From IMG/VR virus record IMGVR_UViG_2923292180_000001: a stretch of 24,956 nucleotides of DNA; one strand, given 5' to 3'. The position numbers were made by a program, and so were the translations under genes. This stretch comes from a virus (Duplodnaviria > Heunggongvirae > Uroviricota > Caudoviricetes). Of the stretch, positions 1,659 to 21,649 are shown piece by piece. How positions within the stretch are numbered: the stretch's first letter is position 1; the number at the start of each line of letters is the position of its first letter. The notes beneath the pieces were generated by a model. It was not told the origin of the DNA, searched no databases, and was given only the letters and a program-made list of their open reading frames with translations.

Positions 1659-3692
1659 TTAAGAATCAGCCTGACTCGGGATCAGTTTTTGCCAGATAAC
1701 TGAAACGTATTTTGCCTGGTAACGGGCGTCATCAAGTGCATTATGGCGCTCACCTTCGAATGGAATAGCCGTTCTGGCATCGAAGTCTATGGCTTTCCCC
1801 AGCTCAACGATTGTGCGTACATCGCGATCGTTGTAGTAACGCCACGGGCAGGGGATCCCCTGCCGTTCGTATGAACGGCGCAAAATCGTGTTGTCGAAGT
1901 TGGCTCCATTTCCCCAAACCTGAACAAAAAATTCACCGGAGTTTTCGTCGATAAATTCTCGCAATTGTAACAGTGCATCATCTAACGGGATTTCATCGGT
2001 CATAATGGCAGATTGCGCTTCGCGTGATTGCTTAAGCCACCATTTAATGGTGTCCCGATCAATGACTCCGCCAGCAGTTTCCAGATCGATAGTCTTACTA
2101 AATTCCGGTCCCATATCTCCGGTTTGCGGATCGAAAAATATTGCACCTATTGAGATGATCGGGGCATCAGGATTTTTTCCCATGGTTTCAAGGTCGATCA
2201 TTAGATGGTCACACGTCCTGCTGGTGGATGTGATTTCGTGATGACCGTTCACCTTAATTGGGTGATCTGCCGTCTCGCCAGTTTCATTATCGCTATTGTG
2301 ATGCTGATTGCCGCCAGTGTTCTCCTTGTGTGGATGTTCAGCGCCTTCCATTTCCTCCGGATCATCTTCCTGAACTTCAACCTGATACTCTTCATCGAAT
2401 GTTTCTTGGTATGTTGCGTCGCCCATCACCGCGCCACAATCAGGGCAGTTGCCGCCGCCGGTCTGACCGCAGGCGGTGCAGACTTTTTCCACTTCCTGTT
2501 GCGCTACTGGTTCAGGCTGTTTCGTTTCTGGCTCGTTTTGTAACGCATTTGGACTGTTTTGTTCCGCTTTTTGGTAGTTCCGTTCCGATTCATGCTGGTT
2601 CTGGTTCACAGAATCGCGGGTCTGGAGCCCCTTAACCCATTTCGGATCATTCGGGTCACTAATCCCTTCAACAAATTCACCACGTGATGCAGCAAGCAAC
2701 TTATCGGCGTCAGGCTGGCTGATATTGGCTGCCTGCATAATTTTGTTTACTTCGTCAGCGGTAACTTTTATCGGCTCTGGTTGTTCTGAATCTTCAGCGG
2801 TATCTACATTTTGCGGTAAGCCCGTGTATGTGCCATTTTTTCGGGCAAAATATTCTTCTTTTGTGATTTCAGTGGCGCCAGCAGCCAGTGCCTTATCCAG
2901 ACCAGAGAGTTTGTTTGCGCGACCGTATTTTTCTCCGTCCTTATCTGCGAAGAGGAAATAGAACGGCCCCTCACGCTCTACAGATGGTTCAGCTTCCGGC
3001 GCGGTTTCATTTTTTGGGATATCAGATACCTCAGTTTCCACTGCATCAGTTTGTGTTTCTGATGACTGGAGAACATCAACAGTGCCCAGGTCTGTTTCTT
3101 CATTCTCAAACACGCCCTTTGTCGTCAGGTATTCGCAGATATATTTGTTCAGTGCTACGGGATCTTTGTGAATGTCGATCGGACGCTCACGGACAAGGCC
3201 AAAAATAGTTTGGCGGTCGTAGCGAAGGGCATCAGGCTGTTTGCGCATTGATGCCGAGATACGCTTCCAGTCTTCGCGGTCGTTGTCGATAACTTCTTTT
3301 TTTGCCCAGCGATGGATGCTGCCGTCAATGTTTCCGGCATCCACATCACTAGGCCAGAGAGCGTAGGCCAGTTCGTCATCCAGTGTTTTCCATGTCTGCT
3401 TGTATTCGCGATGAATGGCAGCAATGACCGGGCTGATTTTTCCTGTTGAATTTTCAGTGTACTGTTGATTGGCTCTGGCGCGGGCGAGATCAACAACAGA
3501 CGTGTATTTTCCGGTTTCCTTGCGTTCACCTTCGCGACGTTTTTTCCAGATGCGCATCTCTGCCTGAATTTCGGGCCATTTAGCACCAGGAATACATTTA
3601 TGCTTAACCCACCCAATGGCGTGCAACTTAAGCTCCGGATACGGGTTATTCCCCTCTGAACAGGCGCGTAAGGACTGGCAAAACGCCCGCAA
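1659..3692 (-). CDS. RecE-like (exodeoxyribonuclease VIII-like) protein with C-terminal DEDDh (DnaQ-like) 3'-5' exonuclease domain
   Basis: 677-aa ORF. C-terminal region carries Exo I (MIDLETMG), Exo II (WGNGANFDNTIL) and Exo III (HNALDDARYQ) motifs; central acidic His-rich low-complexity linker; CxxC-x8-CxxC zinc ribbon (CTACGQTGGGNCPDCG); middle segment (DKLLAASRGEFVEGISDPNDPKWVKG) resembles RecE from memory. Confidence 0.75.
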   Translation of the reverse strand: MRAFCQSLRACSEGNNPYPELKLHAIGWVKHKCIPGAKWPEIQAEMRIWKKRREGERKETGKYTSVVDLARARANQQYTENSTGKISPVIAAIHREYKQTWKTLDDELAYALWPSDVDAGNIDGSIHRWAKKEVIDNDREDWKRISASMRKQPDALRYDRQTIFGLVRERPIDIHKDPVALNKYICEYLTTKGVFENEETDLGTVDVLQSSETQTDAVETEVSDIPKNETAPEAEPSVEREGPFYFLFADKDGEKYGRANKLSGLDKALAAGATEITKEEYFARKNGTYTGLPQNVDTAEDSEQPEPIKVTADEVNKIMQAANISQPDADKLLAASRGEFVEGISDPNDPKWVKGLQTRDSVNQNQHESERNYQKAEQNSPNALQNEPETKQPEPVAQQEVEKVCTACGQTGGGNCPDCGAVMGDATYQETFDEEYQVEVQEDDPEEMEGAEHPHKENTGGNQHHNSDNETGETADHPIKVNGHHEITSTSRTCDHLMIDLETMGKNPDAPIISIGAIFFDPQTGDMGPEFSKTIDLETAGGVIDRDTIKWWLKQSREAQSAIMTDEIPLDDALLQLREFIDENSGEFFVQVWGNGANFDNTILRRSYERQGIPCPWRYYNDRDVRTIVELGKAIDFDARTAIPFEGERHNALDDARYQAKYVSVIWQKLIPSQADS

Positions 3693-5567: not shown

Positions 5568-5840
5568 ATACAGCGAACTCCATTGGTTTAGTTGGATATT
5601 TACTGTGCTGGACAAAAACGGTTTGCGGGGAAATCTTAGTTAAGTAGAATGACTGCGGGTGCTTGAGGCTATCTGCCTCGGGCATGGACACCAACGGCAG
5701 ATAGAGAAAAGCCCCAGTTAACATTACGCGTCCTGCAAGACGCTTAACATTAATCTGAGGCCAATTTCATGCTAGACACATGTAGGTTAGCCTCTTACGT
5801 GCCGAAAGGCACGGAGAAGCAGGCTATTGTTAACACCAAG

Positions 5841-12321: not shown

Positions 12322-12534
12322 TCATGAAAGGTAAACATTGGCAGCTGAAGGGCCACGCAGACCATTTATCCGGCAAAATTCCACGCGTAATCCGGTGGTA
12401 ATTTCTTCTGCATCGCGGAGATTGAGCGCTGAAACATGAAGCTGGACATCGATACGACCATCGGATGGGGTGATAAGACCCTTGCCGCTTTTGCCGTCAA
12501 AGGTTTTGACAATTCCTGTCATTTTACGGGACAA
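12322..12534 (-). CDS. cspF: Cold-shock-like protein CspF
   Basis: 70-aa product [70 protein letters not shown]; divergent from cspB. Confidence 0.9.
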
Positions 12535-12684
12535 AAAAATTCCTTAATACTGATAACTTGGCGCACTATACACACGTTCCTGAAGAAAGCTATAGTTTTT
12601 TGATGGGGTTGAAGATGGCTGGATGTCTAAAATAAACATTGCTTCATATGTTCAACTATGCGTTAATGATTGCGTCGGTTTGAA

Positions 12685-12834
12685 GAACAGACGATATACG
12701 AAGTAGTTTACTAAAGCAGTTCTCATTTCAGGTGTTATTCACTTATTCCTTCTTTGAGTCTCTCCAATTAAGTACGAAGTCGTTTCTGTTATGCAAACCA
12801 TTTATGCCGAAAGGCTCAAGTTAAGGAATGTAGA
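12685..12834 (+). promoter_or_regulatory. cspB 5' untranslated leader with cold-box-like element and cspA-type upstream box
   Basis: AACAGACGATATACGAAGTAGTTTACTAAAGCAG resembles the cspA cold box (TGACGTACAGACCATTAAAGCAG); GCCGAAAGGC lies just upstream of the SD (AAGGAATG) before the cspB ATG, as in cspA. Recalled from memory, not aligned. Confidence 0.4.
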
Positions 12835-13050
12835 ATGTCAAATAAAATGACTGGTTTAGTAAAATGGTTTAACGCTGATAAAGGTTTCGGCTTTATTTCT
12901 CCTGTTGATGGTAGTAAAGATGTGTTTGTGCATTTTTCTGCGATTCAGAATGATAATTATCGAACCTTATTTGAAGGTCAAAAGGTTACCTTCTCTATAG
13001 AGAGTGGTGCTAAAGGTCCTGCAGCAGCAAATGTCATCATTACTGATTAA
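12835..13050 (+). CDS. cspB: Cold-shock protein CspB
   Basis: 71-aa product [71 protein letters not shown] with RNP1/RNP2 motifs. Confidence 0.95.
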
Positions 13051-13331
13051 AATTCATCGCTCGTCTGTATACGATAACGAAGAAGGCTGATGCCTGAGTA
13101 GAGATACGGACAGAGTAGTGAATATTGGATCTCTTTAATAAAAAGTAAGGAGGTCCAATACATGAAACAATGGCTAGCATATTTGGCAAAATCTTAATCA
13201 GGAAAAGTATGCTAACCATTGTGGTGAAGTGCAGGTTTGCTGCATGAATAGTTTTACAGCAGAAGCTAACTGCTGGCATGGCAAAACAAAGTGCGTAAGT
13301 GGATGACTCCCACAAAAAGCACCACAATCTC

Positions 13332-13357
13332 AAACCCGCTCAGGCGGGTTTTTTATT
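13332..13357 (+). terminator. Hairpin terminator between cspB region and the convergent small zinc-ribbon gene
   Basis: AAACCCGC-TCAG-GCGGGTTTTTTATT; strong on the plus strand, weaker but possible for the minus-strand gene ending at 13414. Confidence 0.5.
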
Positions 13358-13413
13358 ATCTGCTTTAAATATATTATTAAAATATAAAAAATACTTGTTA
13401 CTAATAAAATCAA

Positions 13414-13584
13414 TCAGGCTACAGCTTTAAGATTTGTCTGGAATACTTTGTTGCAATGAGGGCAGATCAAAAGGGCACCTTTTTGTACTCTTGAAAAACT
13501 GTGTTCTGACTCTTGGGTGCAGTTTGGGCAGGAACATTTAACGAGATAATTACGGCGTGATTTTGAGTTTTTACGTTCTGACAT
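13414..13584 (-). CDS. Small zinc-ribbon protein (56 aa, two CxxC pairs); possibly YnfU-like
   Basis: ATG at 13584 with upstream AGGAAAAG; product MSERKNSKSRRNYLVKCSCPNCTQESEHSFSRVQKGALLICPHCNKVFQTNLKAVA (CPNC...CPHC). Gene name is a guess from memory. Confidence 0.5.
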   Translation of the reverse strand: MSERKNSKSRRNYLVKCSCPNCTQESEHSFSRVQKGALLICPHCNKVFQTNLKAVA

Positions 13585-15359: not shown

Positions 15360-15721
15360 GGTAATATTAAATCGGAACATTTACATCGCGGAATGTAAAA
15401 TTTAAATAAAAAGGACTCTTCCATGAGCCAAAATTCCTGAAATCTTAAGGGTAAGATAAAAGGTCTTAATCAGAATGACACGTTTTATTAATAAATAAAG
15501 CCATTCTTTCATTGCTGTGTTTTTCTTTACAAAAGTAATCCTTGCTATGGGTGGTTAATCATGCGTTAATGGTGTTCTGGTTTGTTACAAATTTATCTGA
15601 AGCAGTCATTGTTATAATTTTATTATTTGTACCTCTTGAGATTTCCTTGTTGGTTTTTCTCTCTGATATTTTTTTTCGGACCATTCTGCCCAAGGGCTAA
15701 TTTCTTCAAAAGGTAATAATT

Positions 15722-15934
15722 ATGTCTAACAAAATGACTGGTTTAGTGAAATGGTTTAACCCTGAAAAAGGTTTTGGTTTCATCACGCCGAAAGATGGCA
15801 GCAAAGATGTGTTTGTCCATTTCTCAGCAATTCAGAGCAACGATTTCAAAACATTAACTGAGAATCAGGAAGTTGAATTTGGTATTGAGAACGGACCTAA
15901 AGGTCCTGCCGCTGTTCATGTAGTGGCGCTTTGA
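15722..15934 (+). CDS. cspI: Cold-shock protein CspI
   Basis: 70-aa product [70 protein letters not shown]; long AT-rich leader upstream. Confidence 0.95.
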
Positions 15935-16138
15935 GGTAGACAATATTACAAACCATATTCACTTTAGATGCCCGTGTTGTCATGGTTCCCAGTATAGAAC
16001 ATCATCTTTTGATGTTTCTGACATGAATCCTTTCGGGGCAAAATGTATCTTTTGTAAATCAATGATGATTACATTTGATAATATTTCACAATACTTAAAT
16101 GCCAGCCGTCTGTCGTTGGATTTAAAAAAGTGAAAATG

Positions 16139-21074: not shown

Positions 21075-21649
21075 TGGCATTCAGAATGAGTGAACAACCA
21101 CGGACCATAAAAATTTATAATCTGCTGGCCGGAACTAATGAATTTATTGGTGAAGGTGACGCATATATTCCGCCTCATACAGGTCTGCCAGCAAACAGTA
21201 CCGATATTGCACCGCCAGATATTCCGGCAGGCTTCGTGGCTGTTTTCAACAGTGATGAGGCATCGTGGCATCTCGTTGAAGATCATCGGGGTAAAACGGT
21301 TTATGACGTGGCTTCCGGCGACGCGTTATTTATTTCTGAACTCGGTCCGTTACCGGAAAATGTTACCTGGTTATCGCCGGGAGGGGAATATCAGAAGTGG
21401 AACGGCACAGCCTGGGTGAAGGATACGGAAGCAGAAAAACTGTTCCGGATCCGGGAGGCGGAAGAAACAAAAAACAGCCTGATGCAGATAGCCAGTGAGC
21501 ATATAGCGCCGCTTCAGGATGCTGTGGATCTGGAGATCGCAACGGAGGAAGAAACCTTGTTGCTGGAAGCCTGGAAAAAGTATCGGGTGTTGCTGAACCG
21601 TGTTGATACATCAACTGCACCGGATATTGAATGGCCAGCACTGCCGTAG
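21074..21649 (+). CDS. tfaQ: Tail fibre assembly protein Tfa
   Basis: 191-aa product [71 protein letters not shown]... is nearly identical to lambda Tfa from memory. Confidence 0.9.

What the first reader, a model, noticed from the sequence alone, without database searches (positions are those of the whole stretch)
13145..13260. Mini-ORFs with a perfect Shine-Dalgarno in a hairpin-rich non-coding stretch downstream of cspB
TAAGGAGGT at 13145-13153 is followed at optimal spacing by ATG (13161) opening an 11-codon ORF (MKQWLAYLAKS); a second 12-codon ORF starts at 13209 (MLTIVVKCRFAA). The region contains paired inverted repeats (TGCAG..CTGCA, CAGCAG..CTGCTG) and ends in a terminator at 13332-13357. 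This looks like a leader-peptide/attenuator or small-RNA unit rather than random spacer, and nothing in the annotated gene set explains it.
Basis: seen in the sequence. Interest (0 to 1): 0.4.

Follow-up and report, generated by a model that had tools for sequence, protein, structure and literature searches.

The report
Conserved structured 3' UTR of cspB
The "perfect ribosome-binding site with mini-genes" downstream of the prophage cold-shock gene cspB is one arm of a stable RNA hairpin inside a long, conserved, highly folded tail of the cspB messenger RNA that matches no Rfam family; the mini-genes are most likely by-products of that fold.

Summary
The window is the E. coli K-12 Qin prophage. 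The finding lies in the unannotated 363 nt between cspB and ynfU.

The SD and ORF1 coordinates are 1 nt off.

**The leader-peptide reading does not hold.**
- TAAGGAGGT is the 3' arm of a 14-bp hairpin, H2 (-16.4 kcal/mol). Its predicted unpaired probability is 0.006.
- Published Term-seq places a very abundant RNA 3' end at 13163/13165, inside the ORF1 start codon.
- All three ORF1 polymorphisms change the peptide.
- An 82-nt stretch holding the SD arm, ORF1 and the second ATG is cleanly deleted in close relatives and absent in other genera.
- Changes in ORF2 follow RNA pairing, not codons.

**What is conserved is RNA structure.** In roughly 220 homologues from E. coli, five other enterobacterial genera, several phage types and phage-plasmids, always directly 3' of a cspB-like gene, I find:
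- a K-turn-like hairpin (H1);
- a long hairpin (H3);
- a four-way junction. 97% of cells are paired, 9 of 25 pairs show compensatory changes, and 0 of 500 shuffles reach that.

No Rfam family matches. No RefSeq E. coli genome row shown has a feature here, and the papers searched describe nothing here.

The most likely role is control of cspB mRNA 3'-end processing and stability. That role is inferred, not shown.

The parts
12835..13050 (+). cspB coding sequence (71 aa). The element is its 3' UTR.
   Evidence: ORF list. MG1655 annotation b1557. The Rfam cspA thermoregulator RF01766 covers 12674-13066 at 158.8 bits.
13052..13123 (+). H1: a long hairpin immediately after the stop codon, with a K-turn-like internal loop. 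By sequence: C13078=G13098; bulge G13079-A13081; G13082.A13097; A13083.G13096; A13084.U13095; tip GGC-UGAU-GCC at 13085-13094.
   Evidence: MFE fold. RNAalifold on 17 homologues: 13 pairs, 10 with compensatory double changes. The signature C-GAW-GA-N-[hairpin]-Y-GA-G recurs in the Qin, Cyrano, L225, L274, Kluyvera, Kosakonia and Phytobacter types. The K-turn reading is by sequence only.
13124..13159 (+). H2: a 14-bp hairpin (AUUGGAUCUCUUUA / UAAGGAGGUCCAAU, 8-nt loop). Its 3' arm is the 'perfect SD'.
   Evidence: Inverted repeat I3. dG -16.4 kcal/mol at 37 C and -23.8 at 15 C. Within the Qin type, variation is in the loop or converts G-C to G.U. Cyrano- and L225-type relatives carry a different stable hairpin at the same position.
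13146..13154 (+). TAAGGAGGT, the Shine-Dalgarno-like sequence.
   Evidence: Single occurrence in the window, 0.10 expected. Mean predicted unpaired probability is 0.006 at 37 C and 0.001 at 15 C.
13163..13165 (+). Experimentally mapped, very abundant RNA 3' ends (MG1655 minus strand 1641226 and 1641224), 4-6 nt after H2 and inside the ORF1 start codon.
   Evidence: Adams et al. 2021 (PMC7815308), Supplementary file 1. Average read counts: 604,404 (LB OD 0.4), 1,233,565 (LB OD 2.0), 2,464,295 (M63). Class 'orphan'.
13162..13197 (+). ORF1 (MKQWLAYLAKS*), judged incidental.
   Evidence: Alleles MKQWLAYLAKS / MKQWPAYLAKS / MKQWPAYLAIT; all three polymorphic sites are nonsynonymous. Absent in the deletion variants and in other genera.
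13170..13247 (+).
   Evidence: The ATG at 13209 is paired with probability about 0.999. Homologues lack a consistent start codon, and the differences (ATT>GAT, GTG>ATG) are the covarying positions of helix P1. No Pfam match.
13167..13222 (+). H3: a long hairpin (ACAAUGGCUAGCAUAUUU / AAGUAUGCUAACCAUUGU). Its basal 5 bp use the same nucleotides (13218-13222) as the outer part of P1.
   Evidence: Inverted repeat I1. MFE fold. RNAalifold on 23 homologues: 15 pairs, 5 with compensatory changes.
13218..13328 (+). Four-way junction domain. P1 13218-13226/13320-13328; P2 13229-13234/13240-13245; P3 13257-13262/13270-13275 (7-nt loop AAGCUAA); P4 13299-13302/13310-13313.
   Evidence: RNAalifold on 35 distinct homologues independently predicts the four helices. 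97.1% of cells are paired, 9 of 25 pairs have compensatory changes, 0 of 500 shuffles reach this, and slid controls give 21-60% paired. The covariance model finds a single copy in the window at 136 bits.
13332..13357 (.). Intrinsic terminator hairpin (AAACCCGC-TCAG-GCGGGTTT) plus a T tract. It is used bidirectionally.
   Evidence: Terminator scan. A Term-seq 3' end on the ynfU strand at MG1655 1641060 equals window 13329. No cspB-strand 3' end is listed here in the three conditions.
13137..13218 (+). The roughly 82-nt segment (H2 loop and SD arm, ORF1, most of H3) that is cleanly missing in otherwise near-identical E. coli-type relatives.
   Evidence: MAFFT alignment of the window-type UTR with L167 and L273.

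Best explanation
The region is the middle of a long (about 310 nt), modular, highly structured 3' untranslated region of the prophage cold-shock gene cspB. It is a conserved RNA, not a coding or leader-peptide unit.

Its modules, in order:
- H1, a hairpin with a K-turn-like internal loop;
- H2, a variable stable hairpin that in the Qin type happens to be built from an SD-like arm and its complement;
- H3, a long hairpin;
- an intrinsic terminator.

**Shown.**
- The folds are conserved with compensatory changes on the cspB-sense strand in many enterobacterial phages and prophages.
- The element always sits directly 3' of a cspB-like gene.
- In K-12 at 37 C the dominant RNA 3' end lies 4-6 nt after H2.

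**Inferred.**
- H1-H2 act as a barrier that arrests 3'-to-5' exonucleolytic trimming, or follows an endonucleolytic cut. This leaves a stable cspB RNA, or cspB 3' fragment, that ends at H2.
- H3, the junction and the terminator form a removable, regulatory distal domain. Its folding may be tuned by temperature or a bound factor, and by the mutually exclusive H3-base and P1-outer pairings. That folding would decide how long full-length cspB mRNA survives.
- The mini-ORFs are by-products of the helices. The SD is buried, and most transcripts end inside the ORF1 start codon.
For: **Identity and context.** The window is Qin, and nothing is annotated between cspB and ynfU.

**Structure.**
- z = -6.0 for the 315-nt fold.
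- Junction: 97.1% of cells paired, 9 of 25 pairs with compensatory changes, 69 such cells, 0 of 500 shuffles, slid controls at most 60% paired. RNAalifold finds the same helices on its own.
- H1: 10 of 13 pairs are compensatory.
- H3: 5 of 15 pairs are compensatory.
- G.U pairs (columns 20-36: GU in 23 sequences, AU in 10, GC in 2) show that the cspB-sense strand is the one selected.

**Linkage to cspB.** Every homologue with enough upstream DNA has a cspB-like CDS directly 5'. The exceptions have IS insertions or a damaged CDS. This includes an unannotated csp gene in phage Cyrano.

**In-vivo 3' end.** It lies at the base of H2, with 0.6-2.5 million Term-seq reads in three conditions.

**Against coding.**
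- SD unpaired probability is 0.006.
- ORF1 variants are all nonsynonymous.
- The 82-nt deletion removes the SD arm, ORF1 and most of H3 in close relatives.
- Subfamilies differ by indels that are not multiples of 3.
- The antisense 97-aa ORF is open only in the Qin type.
- There are no Pfam hits.

**From established knowledge, not from a tool.**
- csp mRNAs are controlled mainly through stability.
- They are cleared by PNPase and RNase R after acclimation.
- Stable 3' stem-loops arrest these exonucleases.
Against: - The function is inferred. No experiment links this UTR to cspB mRNA half-life.
- The 5' end of the abundant RNA that ends at H2 is unknown, so it could be a separate small RNA rather than cspB mRNA.
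- The Term-seq data are from 37 C only, and cspB is a cold-induced gene.
- A simple exonuclease barrier would not need a four-way junction with highly conserved joints or a K-turn-like motif. This argues for a more specific ligand or partner that I could not identify.
- No cspB-strand 3' end is listed at the terminator, so the distal domain was not seen as a stable RNA under the conditions available.
- The homologue set was collected with two exact motifs (GAAGCTAAC and AAGTGCGTAAG). Invariance of those loops and joints is therefore by construction.
- SD and ATG are invariant across all 24 Qin-type haplotypes. These are very close relatives, so this says little either way.
Confidence: 0.6

Rival explanations
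1. Trans-acting RNA. Either the abundant H1-H2 fragment, or the junction plus terminator, is a 3'-UTR-derived small RNA or a protein/sRNA sponge. It would act on other transcripts or on an RNA-binding protein such as Hfq, ProQ or a Csp protein.
For: - A very abundant, discrete 3' end sits at H2, at a level comparable to sRNA and tRNA ends in the same table.
- The junction is directly followed by a hairpin and U tract in the Qin, Cyrano, L225 and L041 types.
- The junction has A-rich and conserved single-stranded joints.
- 3'-UTR-derived sRNAs are a common class (general knowledge).
Against: - No cspB-strand 3' end is listed at the terminator in three conditions.
- Many subfamilies have no clear terminator after P1.
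- No 5' end, target or binding-protein data were found.
- There is no Rfam match: isrK scores 18.3 bits against a gathering score of 50.
- The strict linkage to a csp CDS fits a cis role at least as well.
Confidence: 0.2
2. ORF1 (and/or the second ORF) is translated from the strong SD. It acts as a leader peptide or attenuator, or yields a cold-induced micropeptide.
For: - A perfect 9-nt SD with a 7-nt spacer to ATG is rare (0.10 expected per window).
- SD and ATG are invariant in 24 Qin-type haplotypes.
- There is a precedent in the same prophage: YnfR (21 aa), next to cspI, is strongly cold-induced (PMC6001520).
- Translation of ORF1 would unzip the 5' arm of H3 and could shift the competition between H3 and P1.
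Against: - The SD is buried in a -16.4 kcal/mol hairpin (unpaired probability 0.006, lower in the cold).
- The major RNA 3' end is inside the start codon.
- ORF1 is not in the Ribo-RET sORF supplement, and the peptide appears in no held paper.
- All three ORF1 polymorphisms are nonsynonymous, including L>P.
- The segment is deleted in close relatives and absent elsewhere.
- The ORF1 stop is 135 nt from the terminator.
- There are no regulatory codon runs.
- No downstream co-oriented gene lies before the convergent ynfU.
- Trp_leader scores 21.7 bits against a gathering score of 41, over the terminator only.
Confidence: 0.07
3. Riboswitch-like or thermosensor read-through control. Folding of the junction decides whether the terminator forms, gating transcription from cspB (or from the late promoter) toward the lysis genes.
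For: - GCAGGTTTG (13231-13239; P2 5' strand plus loop) is complementary to the terminator 5' arm CAAACCCGC (13331-13339) at 8 of 9 positions.
- By eye, the complementarity is as good or better in the Cyrano and L225 types, where P2 is GCGGG.
- The H3 base and outer P1 are mutually exclusive, and both pairings have compensatory support.
Against: - P2 is a local hairpin made about 90 nt before the terminator, so it is kinetically favoured.
- Many subfamilies keep P2 but lack this terminator.
- The gene immediately downstream is convergent.
- The complementarity may simply reflect the GC-rich GCGGG/CCCGC composition of terminators.
- No ligand or sensor was identified.
Confidence: 0.07
4. Nothing functional: a decayed gene remnant or spacer whose hairpins and SD are chance, or an unannotated protein gene on the minus strand (97-aa ORF 13040-13333).
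For: - A 97-codon ORF is open on the minus strand in the Qin type.
- Prophage Qin is cryptic and decaying.
Against: - The covariation statistics and cross-genus conservation argue against chance.
- z = -6 for the fold.
- The minus-strand ORF is broken in the deletion variants and in every other subfamily, where the longest stop-free stretch is 45-65 codons.
- There is no Pfam family, and no RefSeq genome row shown has a CDS here.
Confidence: 0.03

Closest known systems
3'-terminal stem-loop barriers to exonucleases in bacterial mRNAs (REP and terminator hairpins; the ProQ-protected cspE 3' end in Salmonella). From general knowledge.
   Same: A stable hairpin in a 3' UTR sits a few nucleotides upstream of the mapped, abundant RNA 3' end. 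The gene belongs to a family regulated through mRNA stability.
   Different: Here the barrier is part of a roughly 300-nt multi-domain structure (K-turn-like hairpin, long hairpin, four-way junction) conserved with covariation across genera. That is much more than a simple hairpin. No protein partner is known.
cspA thermoregulator (Rfam RF01766)
   Same: Same mRNA. The cspB 5' UTR and CDS match this family at 158.8 bits (12674-13066). Both are structured RNA parts of cold-shock transcripts.
   Different: The Rfam model ends 16-28 nt after the stop codon. H1-H2-H3 and the junction lie outside it. They have no counterpart downstream of cspI in the same window.
Leader-peptide transcription attenuators (e.g. 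trp leader, RF00513)
   Same: A short ORF with an SD, hairpins, and a terminator downstream.
   Different: The SD is sequestered. The ORF is not conserved and has no regulatory codons. The terminator is 135 nt away, beyond a four-way junction. The unit is 3' of a gene and is followed by a convergent gene. The Rfam score is 21.7 against 41.
SD-sequestering RNA thermometers (FourU RF01795, ROSE)
   Same: A U-rich strand (CUCUUUA) pairs with AAGGAGG.
   Different: The hairpin is far too stable (still fully formed in silico at 50 C). It sits in a 3' UTR in front of an 11-codon, non-conserved ORF. FourU scores 16.6 against 60. The gene is cold-induced, and a cold shift would close the hairpin further.
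3'-UTR-derived small RNAs (CpxQ, SdhX, MalH type)
   Same: A structured RNA at the end of an mRNA shares its terminator, and a discrete abundant end lies within the 3' UTR.
   Different: The abundant end is at H2, not at the terminator. No seed, target or chaperone data exist. The conserved core is a four-way junction rather than a linear seed plus terminator.
Kink-turn motifs (Kt-7, box C/D). From general knowledge.
   Same: H1 carries C=G, a 3-nt bulge (GAA or GAU), tandem G.A/A.G, then a short helix. By eye, the Qin version (C-GAA-GA-A-GG / CC-U-GA-G) closely resembles Kt-7.
   Different: This was recognised only by sequence. To my knowledge E. coli has no L7Ae-type K-turn-binding protein. 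One subfamily (L093) replaces the motif with a regular helix, and the PHB10 type lacks H1.

Membership tests
Leader-peptide attenuator (trp-type) | A leader ORF that is efficiently translated (accessible SD and start codon) | tested here: not met
   SD unpaired probability is 0.006 at 37 C. The major in-vivo RNA 3' end is inside the AUG. ORF1 is absent from the held Ribo-RET supplement. This rests on in-silico and 37 C data only.
Leader-peptide attenuator (trp-type) | The ribosome position on the leader selects between overlapping antiterminator and terminator hairpins | tested here: not met
   The ORF1 stop (13195-13197) is 135 nt upstream of the terminator (13332), with H3 and a four-way junction in between.
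Leader-peptide attenuator (trp-type) | Located upstream of the co-oriented genes it controls; leader conserved with them | tested here: not met
   The element lies 3' of cspB, and the next gene (ynfU) is convergent. ORF1 is absent in relatives. Rfam Trp_leader scores 21.7 against 41 bits.
RNA thermometer (FourU/ROSE) | The SD is paired in a hairpin of marginal stability that melts in the physiological range | tested here: not met
   The SD is paired, but the hairpin is -16.4 kcal/mol at 37 C and still fully formed at 50 C in silico. FourU scores 16.6 against 60 bits.
RNA thermometer (FourU/ROSE) | Controls translation of a genuine downstream protein gene | tested here: not met
   The only ORF behind it is an 11-codon ORF with no sign of constraint on the peptide.
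cspA thermoregulator RF01766 | Match to the covariance model | tested here: not met
   The model match covers 12674-13066. With the permissive search it extends to 13078. The finding (13145-13260) lies outside it.
3'-UTR-derived sRNA | A stable RNA species whose 3' end is the mRNA's terminator | tested here: not met
   No cspB-strand 3' end is listed near MG1655 1641026-1641032 in LB OD 0.4, LB OD 2.0 or M63. Cold conditions were not available.
3'-UTR-derived sRNA | Chaperone binding and a conserved seed with targets | not testable with these tools
   No RIL-seq or CLIP tables were accessible. Conservation of the joints is biased by the search motifs.
Conserved structured RNA (generic criterion: covariation-supported secondary structure) | Helices maintained by compensatory substitutions beyond controls | tested here: met
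   Junction: 9 of 25 pairs, 69 cells, 0 of 500 shuffles, slid controls at most 60% paired. H1: 10 of 13 pairs. H3: 5 of 15 pairs.
Kink-turn | C helix ending in C=G, a 3-nt bulge, tandem sheared G.A/A.G, then an NC helix | tested here: inconclusive
   The sequence pattern is present and recurs in seven subfamilies, with covarying flanking helices. It is lost in L093 and absent in the PHB10 type. Geometry was not tested.
Kink-turn | Sharp kink in 3D, or binding by an L7Ae-family protein | not testable with these tools
   No RNA 3D tool is available here.
Type I toxin-antitoxin (hok/sok-like) | A small hydrophobic toxin ORF plus an antisense RNA, with fold-back control | tested here: not met
   No Rfam TA family matches here, whereas sok is found elsewhere in the window at 5657-5828. 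ORF1 is 11 aa and not hydrophobic. The 25-aa ORF lacks an SD at a usable spacing and is not conserved.
Intrinsic terminator | A GC-rich hairpin followed by a U tract | tested here: met
   13332-13351 plus TTTTATTAT. In vivo, a 3' end is recorded for the opposite (ynfU) strand at window 13329.

The most novel reading that the evidence does not exclude
This is an undescribed family of phage-borne structured RNA: a K-turn-like hairpin, a long hairpin and a four-way junction with two competing closing helices. It is fused to the 3' end of cspB-type cold-shock genes across Enterobacteriaceae phages, prophages and phage-plasmids. It would work as a specific sensor or switch, responsive to temperature or to a protein or RNA ligand. 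That switch would decide whether the cold-shock mRNA is kept, trimmed to a stable H1-H2-ended RNA, or read through. The very abundant K-12 RNA ending at 13163-13165 would be its processed product.
Probability: 0.3. Interest if true: 0.65.

Novelty: new variant of a known kind. Interest (0 to 1): 0.45.

Why it matters
Cold-shock genes of the cspA family are textbook examples of RNA-level regulation, but attention has been on their 5' UTRs. The cspB-type genes carried by phages have a covariation-supported, roughly 300-nt structured 3' UTR. In K-12 it produces one of the more abundant unassigned RNA 3' ends in a published Term-seq set. Together these point to an unstudied layer of control, or a new RNA-protein partnership, in the best-studied bacterium. 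The case also warns small-ORF hunters that a perfect Shine-Dalgarno plus ATG can be nothing more than one arm of a structural hairpin.

Tried and rejected
- **Rfam.** At gathering and at E<=10, only the cspA thermoregulator matches, and it ends at 13066-13078. Trp_leader, isrK, FourU and rsmX all score far below their thresholds and sit mostly on the terminator.
- **tRNA-like reading of the cloverleaf-shaped junction.** ARAGORN finds nothing, and the linkers are far too long.
- **Protein-coding readings.**
  - ORF1, the 25-aa ORF and the antisense 97-aa ORF have no Pfam family.
  - The antisense ORF's frame is not conserved across subfamilies, and ORF1 is absent outside the Qin type.
  - The frame that gives MQVCCMNSFTAEANC... 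is shared by Qin and PHB10 but broken by a 1-nt indel in Cyrano.
- **A second copy of the element downstream of cspI.** None.
- **The first collection scan with a bare 15-mer** (genome contigs). Most hits were chance. Only the enterobacterial loci were real, selected by a second motif.
- **The search for related loci with CspB**. It returned only 100%-identical genes, so it gave no unbiased sample of divergent csp 3' UTRs.
- **Literature.**
  - No held paper contains the ORF1 peptide.
  - Papers mentioning cspB deal with the 5' UTR, the protein, or Rho termination in the leader.
  - Supplements of the RIL-seq, VanOrsdel and Weaver papers are not held.
  - The Cappable-seq supplement had no entry for the expected coordinates. 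The 5' end of the abundant RNA therefore remains unknown.
- **Own promoter for the junction.** No promoter-like site on the + strand between 13051 and 13330.
Full report
**Where we are.** The window is the cryptic prophage Qin of E. coli K-12, reverse-complemented relative to NC_000913.3 (MG1655 coordinate = 1654389 minus window coordinate). cspB is 12835-13050 (+), cspF is 12322-12534 (-), ynfU is 13414-13584 (-), and essQ and the lysis genes follow on the + strand. Nothing is annotated in MG1655 between cspB and ynfU (window 13051-13413). None of the E. coli RefSeq genome rows shown has a feature under 13051-13365, out of about 1,640-1,730 matching records.

**Check of the observation.**
- TAAGGAGGT is at 13146-13154. 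It occurs once in the window, against 0.10 expected.
- The ATG is at 13162, with a 7-nt spacer. ORF1 is MKQWLAYLAKS (13162-13197).
- The ATG at 13209 opens MLTIVVKCRFAA, but it is internal to a 25-codon ORF (13170-13247) in another frame.
- TGCAG/CTGCA, CAGCAG/CTGCTG and the terminator (13332-13351 plus T tract) are confirmed.

- The SD is itself the 3' arm of a 14-bp inverted repeat, H2 (13124-13137 / 13146-13159).
- ORF1 runs into an 18-nt inverted repeat, H3 (13167-13184 / 13205-13222).
- ATTGTGGTG (13218-13226) pairs with CACCACAAT (13320-13328) around the two small repeats.

The 315-nt stretch folds with z = -6.0 relative to dinucleotide shuffles.

**What is conserved.**
- Blast found the region in about 30% of complete E. 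coli genomes, in six lambdoid phages, and partially in phage Cyrano and phage PHB10.
- In both of those phages the match lies directly 3' of a cspB-like gene. The one in Cyrano is unannotated.
- Motif scans of genome, viral and metagenome collections gave about 220 true homologues in 33 clusters at roughly 97% identity. They come from Escherichia, Enterobacter, Kosakonia, Kluyvera, Phytobacter and Superficieibacter, from viral contigs, and from roughly 100-kb plasmids that carry dnaE (probable phage-plasmids). All are immediately downstream of a cspB-like CDS wherever upstream DNA is present and intact.

The common architecture is H1 - variable linker (often a hairpin, H2) - H3 - four-way junction (P1-P4) - terminator or U-rich tract.

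**Covariation.**
- Junction (35 distinct sequences). RNAalifold independently predicts P1-P4. For my structure, 97.1% of cells are standard pairs, 9 of 25 pairs show changes on both sides (69 cells), and no shuffle of 500 reaches the observed values. Sliding the partners gives only 21-60% pairing.
  - Example, P1: GUGGUG/CACCAC (Qin), GUGAUG/CAUCAC (most others), GUGGCG/CGCCAU (Cyrano).
  - Example, P2: UGCAG/CUGCA against UGCGG/CCGCA.
  - Example, P4: GUGG/CCAC against GAGG/CCUC.
- Frequent G.U pairs identify the cspB-sense strand as the selected one.
- H1 has 10 of 13 pairs with compensatory changes. H3 has 5 of 15.
- A covariance model finds exactly one copy in the window (13211-13337, 136 bits) and nothing near cspI.
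- Rfam has no family for any of this. The cspA thermoregulator model stops at 13066-13078.

Caveat: the homologues were retrieved with GAAGCTAAC and AAGTGCGTAAG as exact anchors. The invariance of the P3 loop and of the joint before P4 is therefore by construction. The helices were not anchored.

**The SD and the mini-ORFs.**
- In silico, the SD is almost never free. Mean unpaired probability is 0.006 at 37 C and 0.001 at 15 C. H2 is -16.4 kcal/mol and still intact at 50 C. The ATG at 13209 is paired with probability about 0.999.
- The Term-seq atlas of Adams et al. 2021 (PMC7815308, Supplementary file 1) lists an 'orphan' minus-strand 3' end at MG1655 1641226 (LB OD 0.4; 604,404 reads) and at 1641224 (LB OD 2.0, 1,233,565; M63, 2,464,295). 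These equal window 13163 and 13165, which is 4-6 nt after H2 and inside the ORF1 start codon.
- Those counts are in the range of sRNA and tRNA ends in the same table. No cspB-strand end is listed at the intrinsic terminator. The ynfU-strand end is at window 13329, so the terminator works bidirectionally.
- Most RNA molecules detected under those conditions therefore cannot encode ORF1.
- The held supplement of the Ribo-RET study by Stringer et al. has no entry at these coordinates. No held paper contains the peptide.

Evolution agrees.
- Among 24 Qin-type haplotypes the three polymorphic ORF1 sites are all nonsynonymous (L/P, K/I, S/T).
- Near-identical relatives (L167, L273) have a clean 82-nt deletion. 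It removes the H2 loop and SD arm, ORF1 and most of H3, but keeps H1 and the junction.
- Other genera have unrelated sequence in place of H2 and ORF1.
- The differences in the second ORF (ATT>GAT, GTG>ATG) are exactly the P1 positions that covary with the distant 3' strand outside the ORF.
- The 97-codon antisense ORF is open only in the Qin type and has no Pfam family.

**Details that may matter for mechanism.**
- H1 contains C13078=G13098, a GAA bulge, G13082.A13097, A13083.G13096 and A13084.U13095, then GGC-UGAU-GCC. This pattern, C-GAW-GA-N-[hairpin]-Y-GA-G, is the sequence signature of a kink-turn. It recurs in seven subfamilies with covarying flanking helices. It is replaced by a regular helix in L093 and is absent in the PHB10 type. 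This is a resemblance by sequence, not a test.
- The five basal pairs of H3 (ACAAU 13167-13171 with AUUGU 13218-13222) and the five outer pairs of P1 (AUUGU with ACAAU 13324-13328) are mutually exclusive. Both sets change in a compensatory way between subfamilies. This could be a branch-migrating junction or a switch.
- The P2 5' strand plus loop is 8/9 complementary to the terminator 5' arm. I could not decide whether that means anything.

**Best explanation.** The finding sits in a conserved, modular, structured 3' UTR of phage-borne cspB-type genes.
- *Shown:* conserved RNA folds on the sense strand, strict linkage to the csp CDS, and a very abundant in-vivo RNA end at the base of H2.
- *Inferred:* H1-H2 arrest 3'-to-5' decay, or mark a processing site. 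H3, the junction and the terminator form a distal regulatory domain that influences the lifetime of full-length cspB mRNA. This fits the known dependence of csp expression on mRNA stability and on PNPase and RNase R after acclimation (established knowledge, not tested here).
- I put 0.6 on this cis-acting processing and stability role. I put about 0.85 on the narrower claim that this is a conserved structured RNA and the mini-ORFs are incidental.

**Rivals.**
- A trans-acting RNA or sponge derived from the UTR: 0.2.
Its best support is the rarity of the SD and the precedent of cold-induced YnfR next to cspI (PMC6001520).
- A riboswitch-like read-through switch: 0.07.
- Chance or a gene remnant: 0.03.

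**Novelty and score.**
- 3'-UTR hairpin barriers and structured cis-elements are known kinds of things. This particular multi-domain family has no Rfam model, no annotation, and no description in the papers I could search. I rate it a new variant of a known kind.
- The literature accessible here is incomplete, and the function is not demonstrated.
- As a mini-ORF or attenuator finding it is ordinary and mostly wrong. As a pointer to an unstudied structured RNA in K-12, with an abundant processed product, it is moderately interesting (0.45).

Noticed in passing
window 13329 and 13332-13357: The cspB terminator is used from the other side. Term-seq lists a ynfU-strand 3' end at MG1655 1641060 (window 13329), but no cspB-strand end at this terminator in three 37 C conditions.
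   Followed up: partly
window 13167-13171, 13218-13222, 13324-13328: ACAAU occurs twice and competes for the same AUUGU. The base of H3 and the outer half of P1 are therefore mutually exclusive. Both pairings change in a compensatory way between subfamilies, which suggests a sliding junction or a switch.
   Followed up: partly
window 13231-13239 and 13331-13339: GCAGGTTTG (P2 5' strand plus loop) is 8/9 complementary to the 5' arm of the terminator (CAAACCCGC). By eye, the match is as good or better in Cyrano- and L225-type relatives, where P2 is GCGGG. This may be an antiterminator pairing or a composition effect.
   Followed up: no
window 13078-13098: A kink-turn-like sequence signature (C | GAA | GA | A ... 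U | GA | G) lies in hairpin H1. By eye it is close to Kt-7. It is conserved in seven subfamilies, but to my knowledge E. coli has no L7Ae-type binder.
   Followed up: partly
window 13263-13269: The 7-nt loop of P3 (AAGCUAA) contains the self-complementary AGCU, which could allow loop-loop dimerisation. Its invariance cannot be judged because it was a search anchor.
   Followed up: no
window 13040-13333 (-): A 97-codon ORF with a TTG start spans the whole element on the minus strand. It is open only in the Qin type, is frameshifted or broken in all other subfamilies, and has no Pfam match.
   Followed up: yes
L200 about 2990-3010; L141 about 1700-1760 (reverse strand): Natural 'mutants'. In L200 an IS element ends exactly at the 5' edge of P1, removing cspB, H1-H2 and most of H3. 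In L141 an insertion truncates the cspB CDS but keeps the whole UTR.
   Followed up: no
L002 2631-2845 (phage Cyrano OV696614.1); about 91 E. coli plasmids (e.g. NZ_CP025894.1): An unannotated cspB-like gene with its own cspA-type leader and this 3' element lies between hicAB and dnaE in a 108-kb phage, and in roughly 100-kb plasmids that are probable phage-plasmids.
   Followed up: partly
L003 2184-3308 (phage PHB10): The whole cassette (cspF-like (-), cspB-like (+), structured UTR, ynfU-like (-)) is kept at about 75% identity in an unrelated integrase-bearing phage. The three genes and the RNA may travel as one moron.
   Followed up: no
window 12755: Term-seq also lists a cspB-strand 3' end in the cspB 5' UTR (MG1655 1641634). 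Adams et al. infer Rho termination in the cspB 5' UTR or ORF from a reporter fusion.
   Followed up: no
window 15576-15961, 5657-5828, 21417-21615: Other Rfam hits in the window: a second cspA thermoregulator (cspI, 112.8 bits), sok antitoxin RNA (104.1 bits) and IS009 (221.5 bits). cspI has no copy of the 3' element. It is followed instead by the translated small ORFs ynfQ and ynfR.
   Followed up: partly
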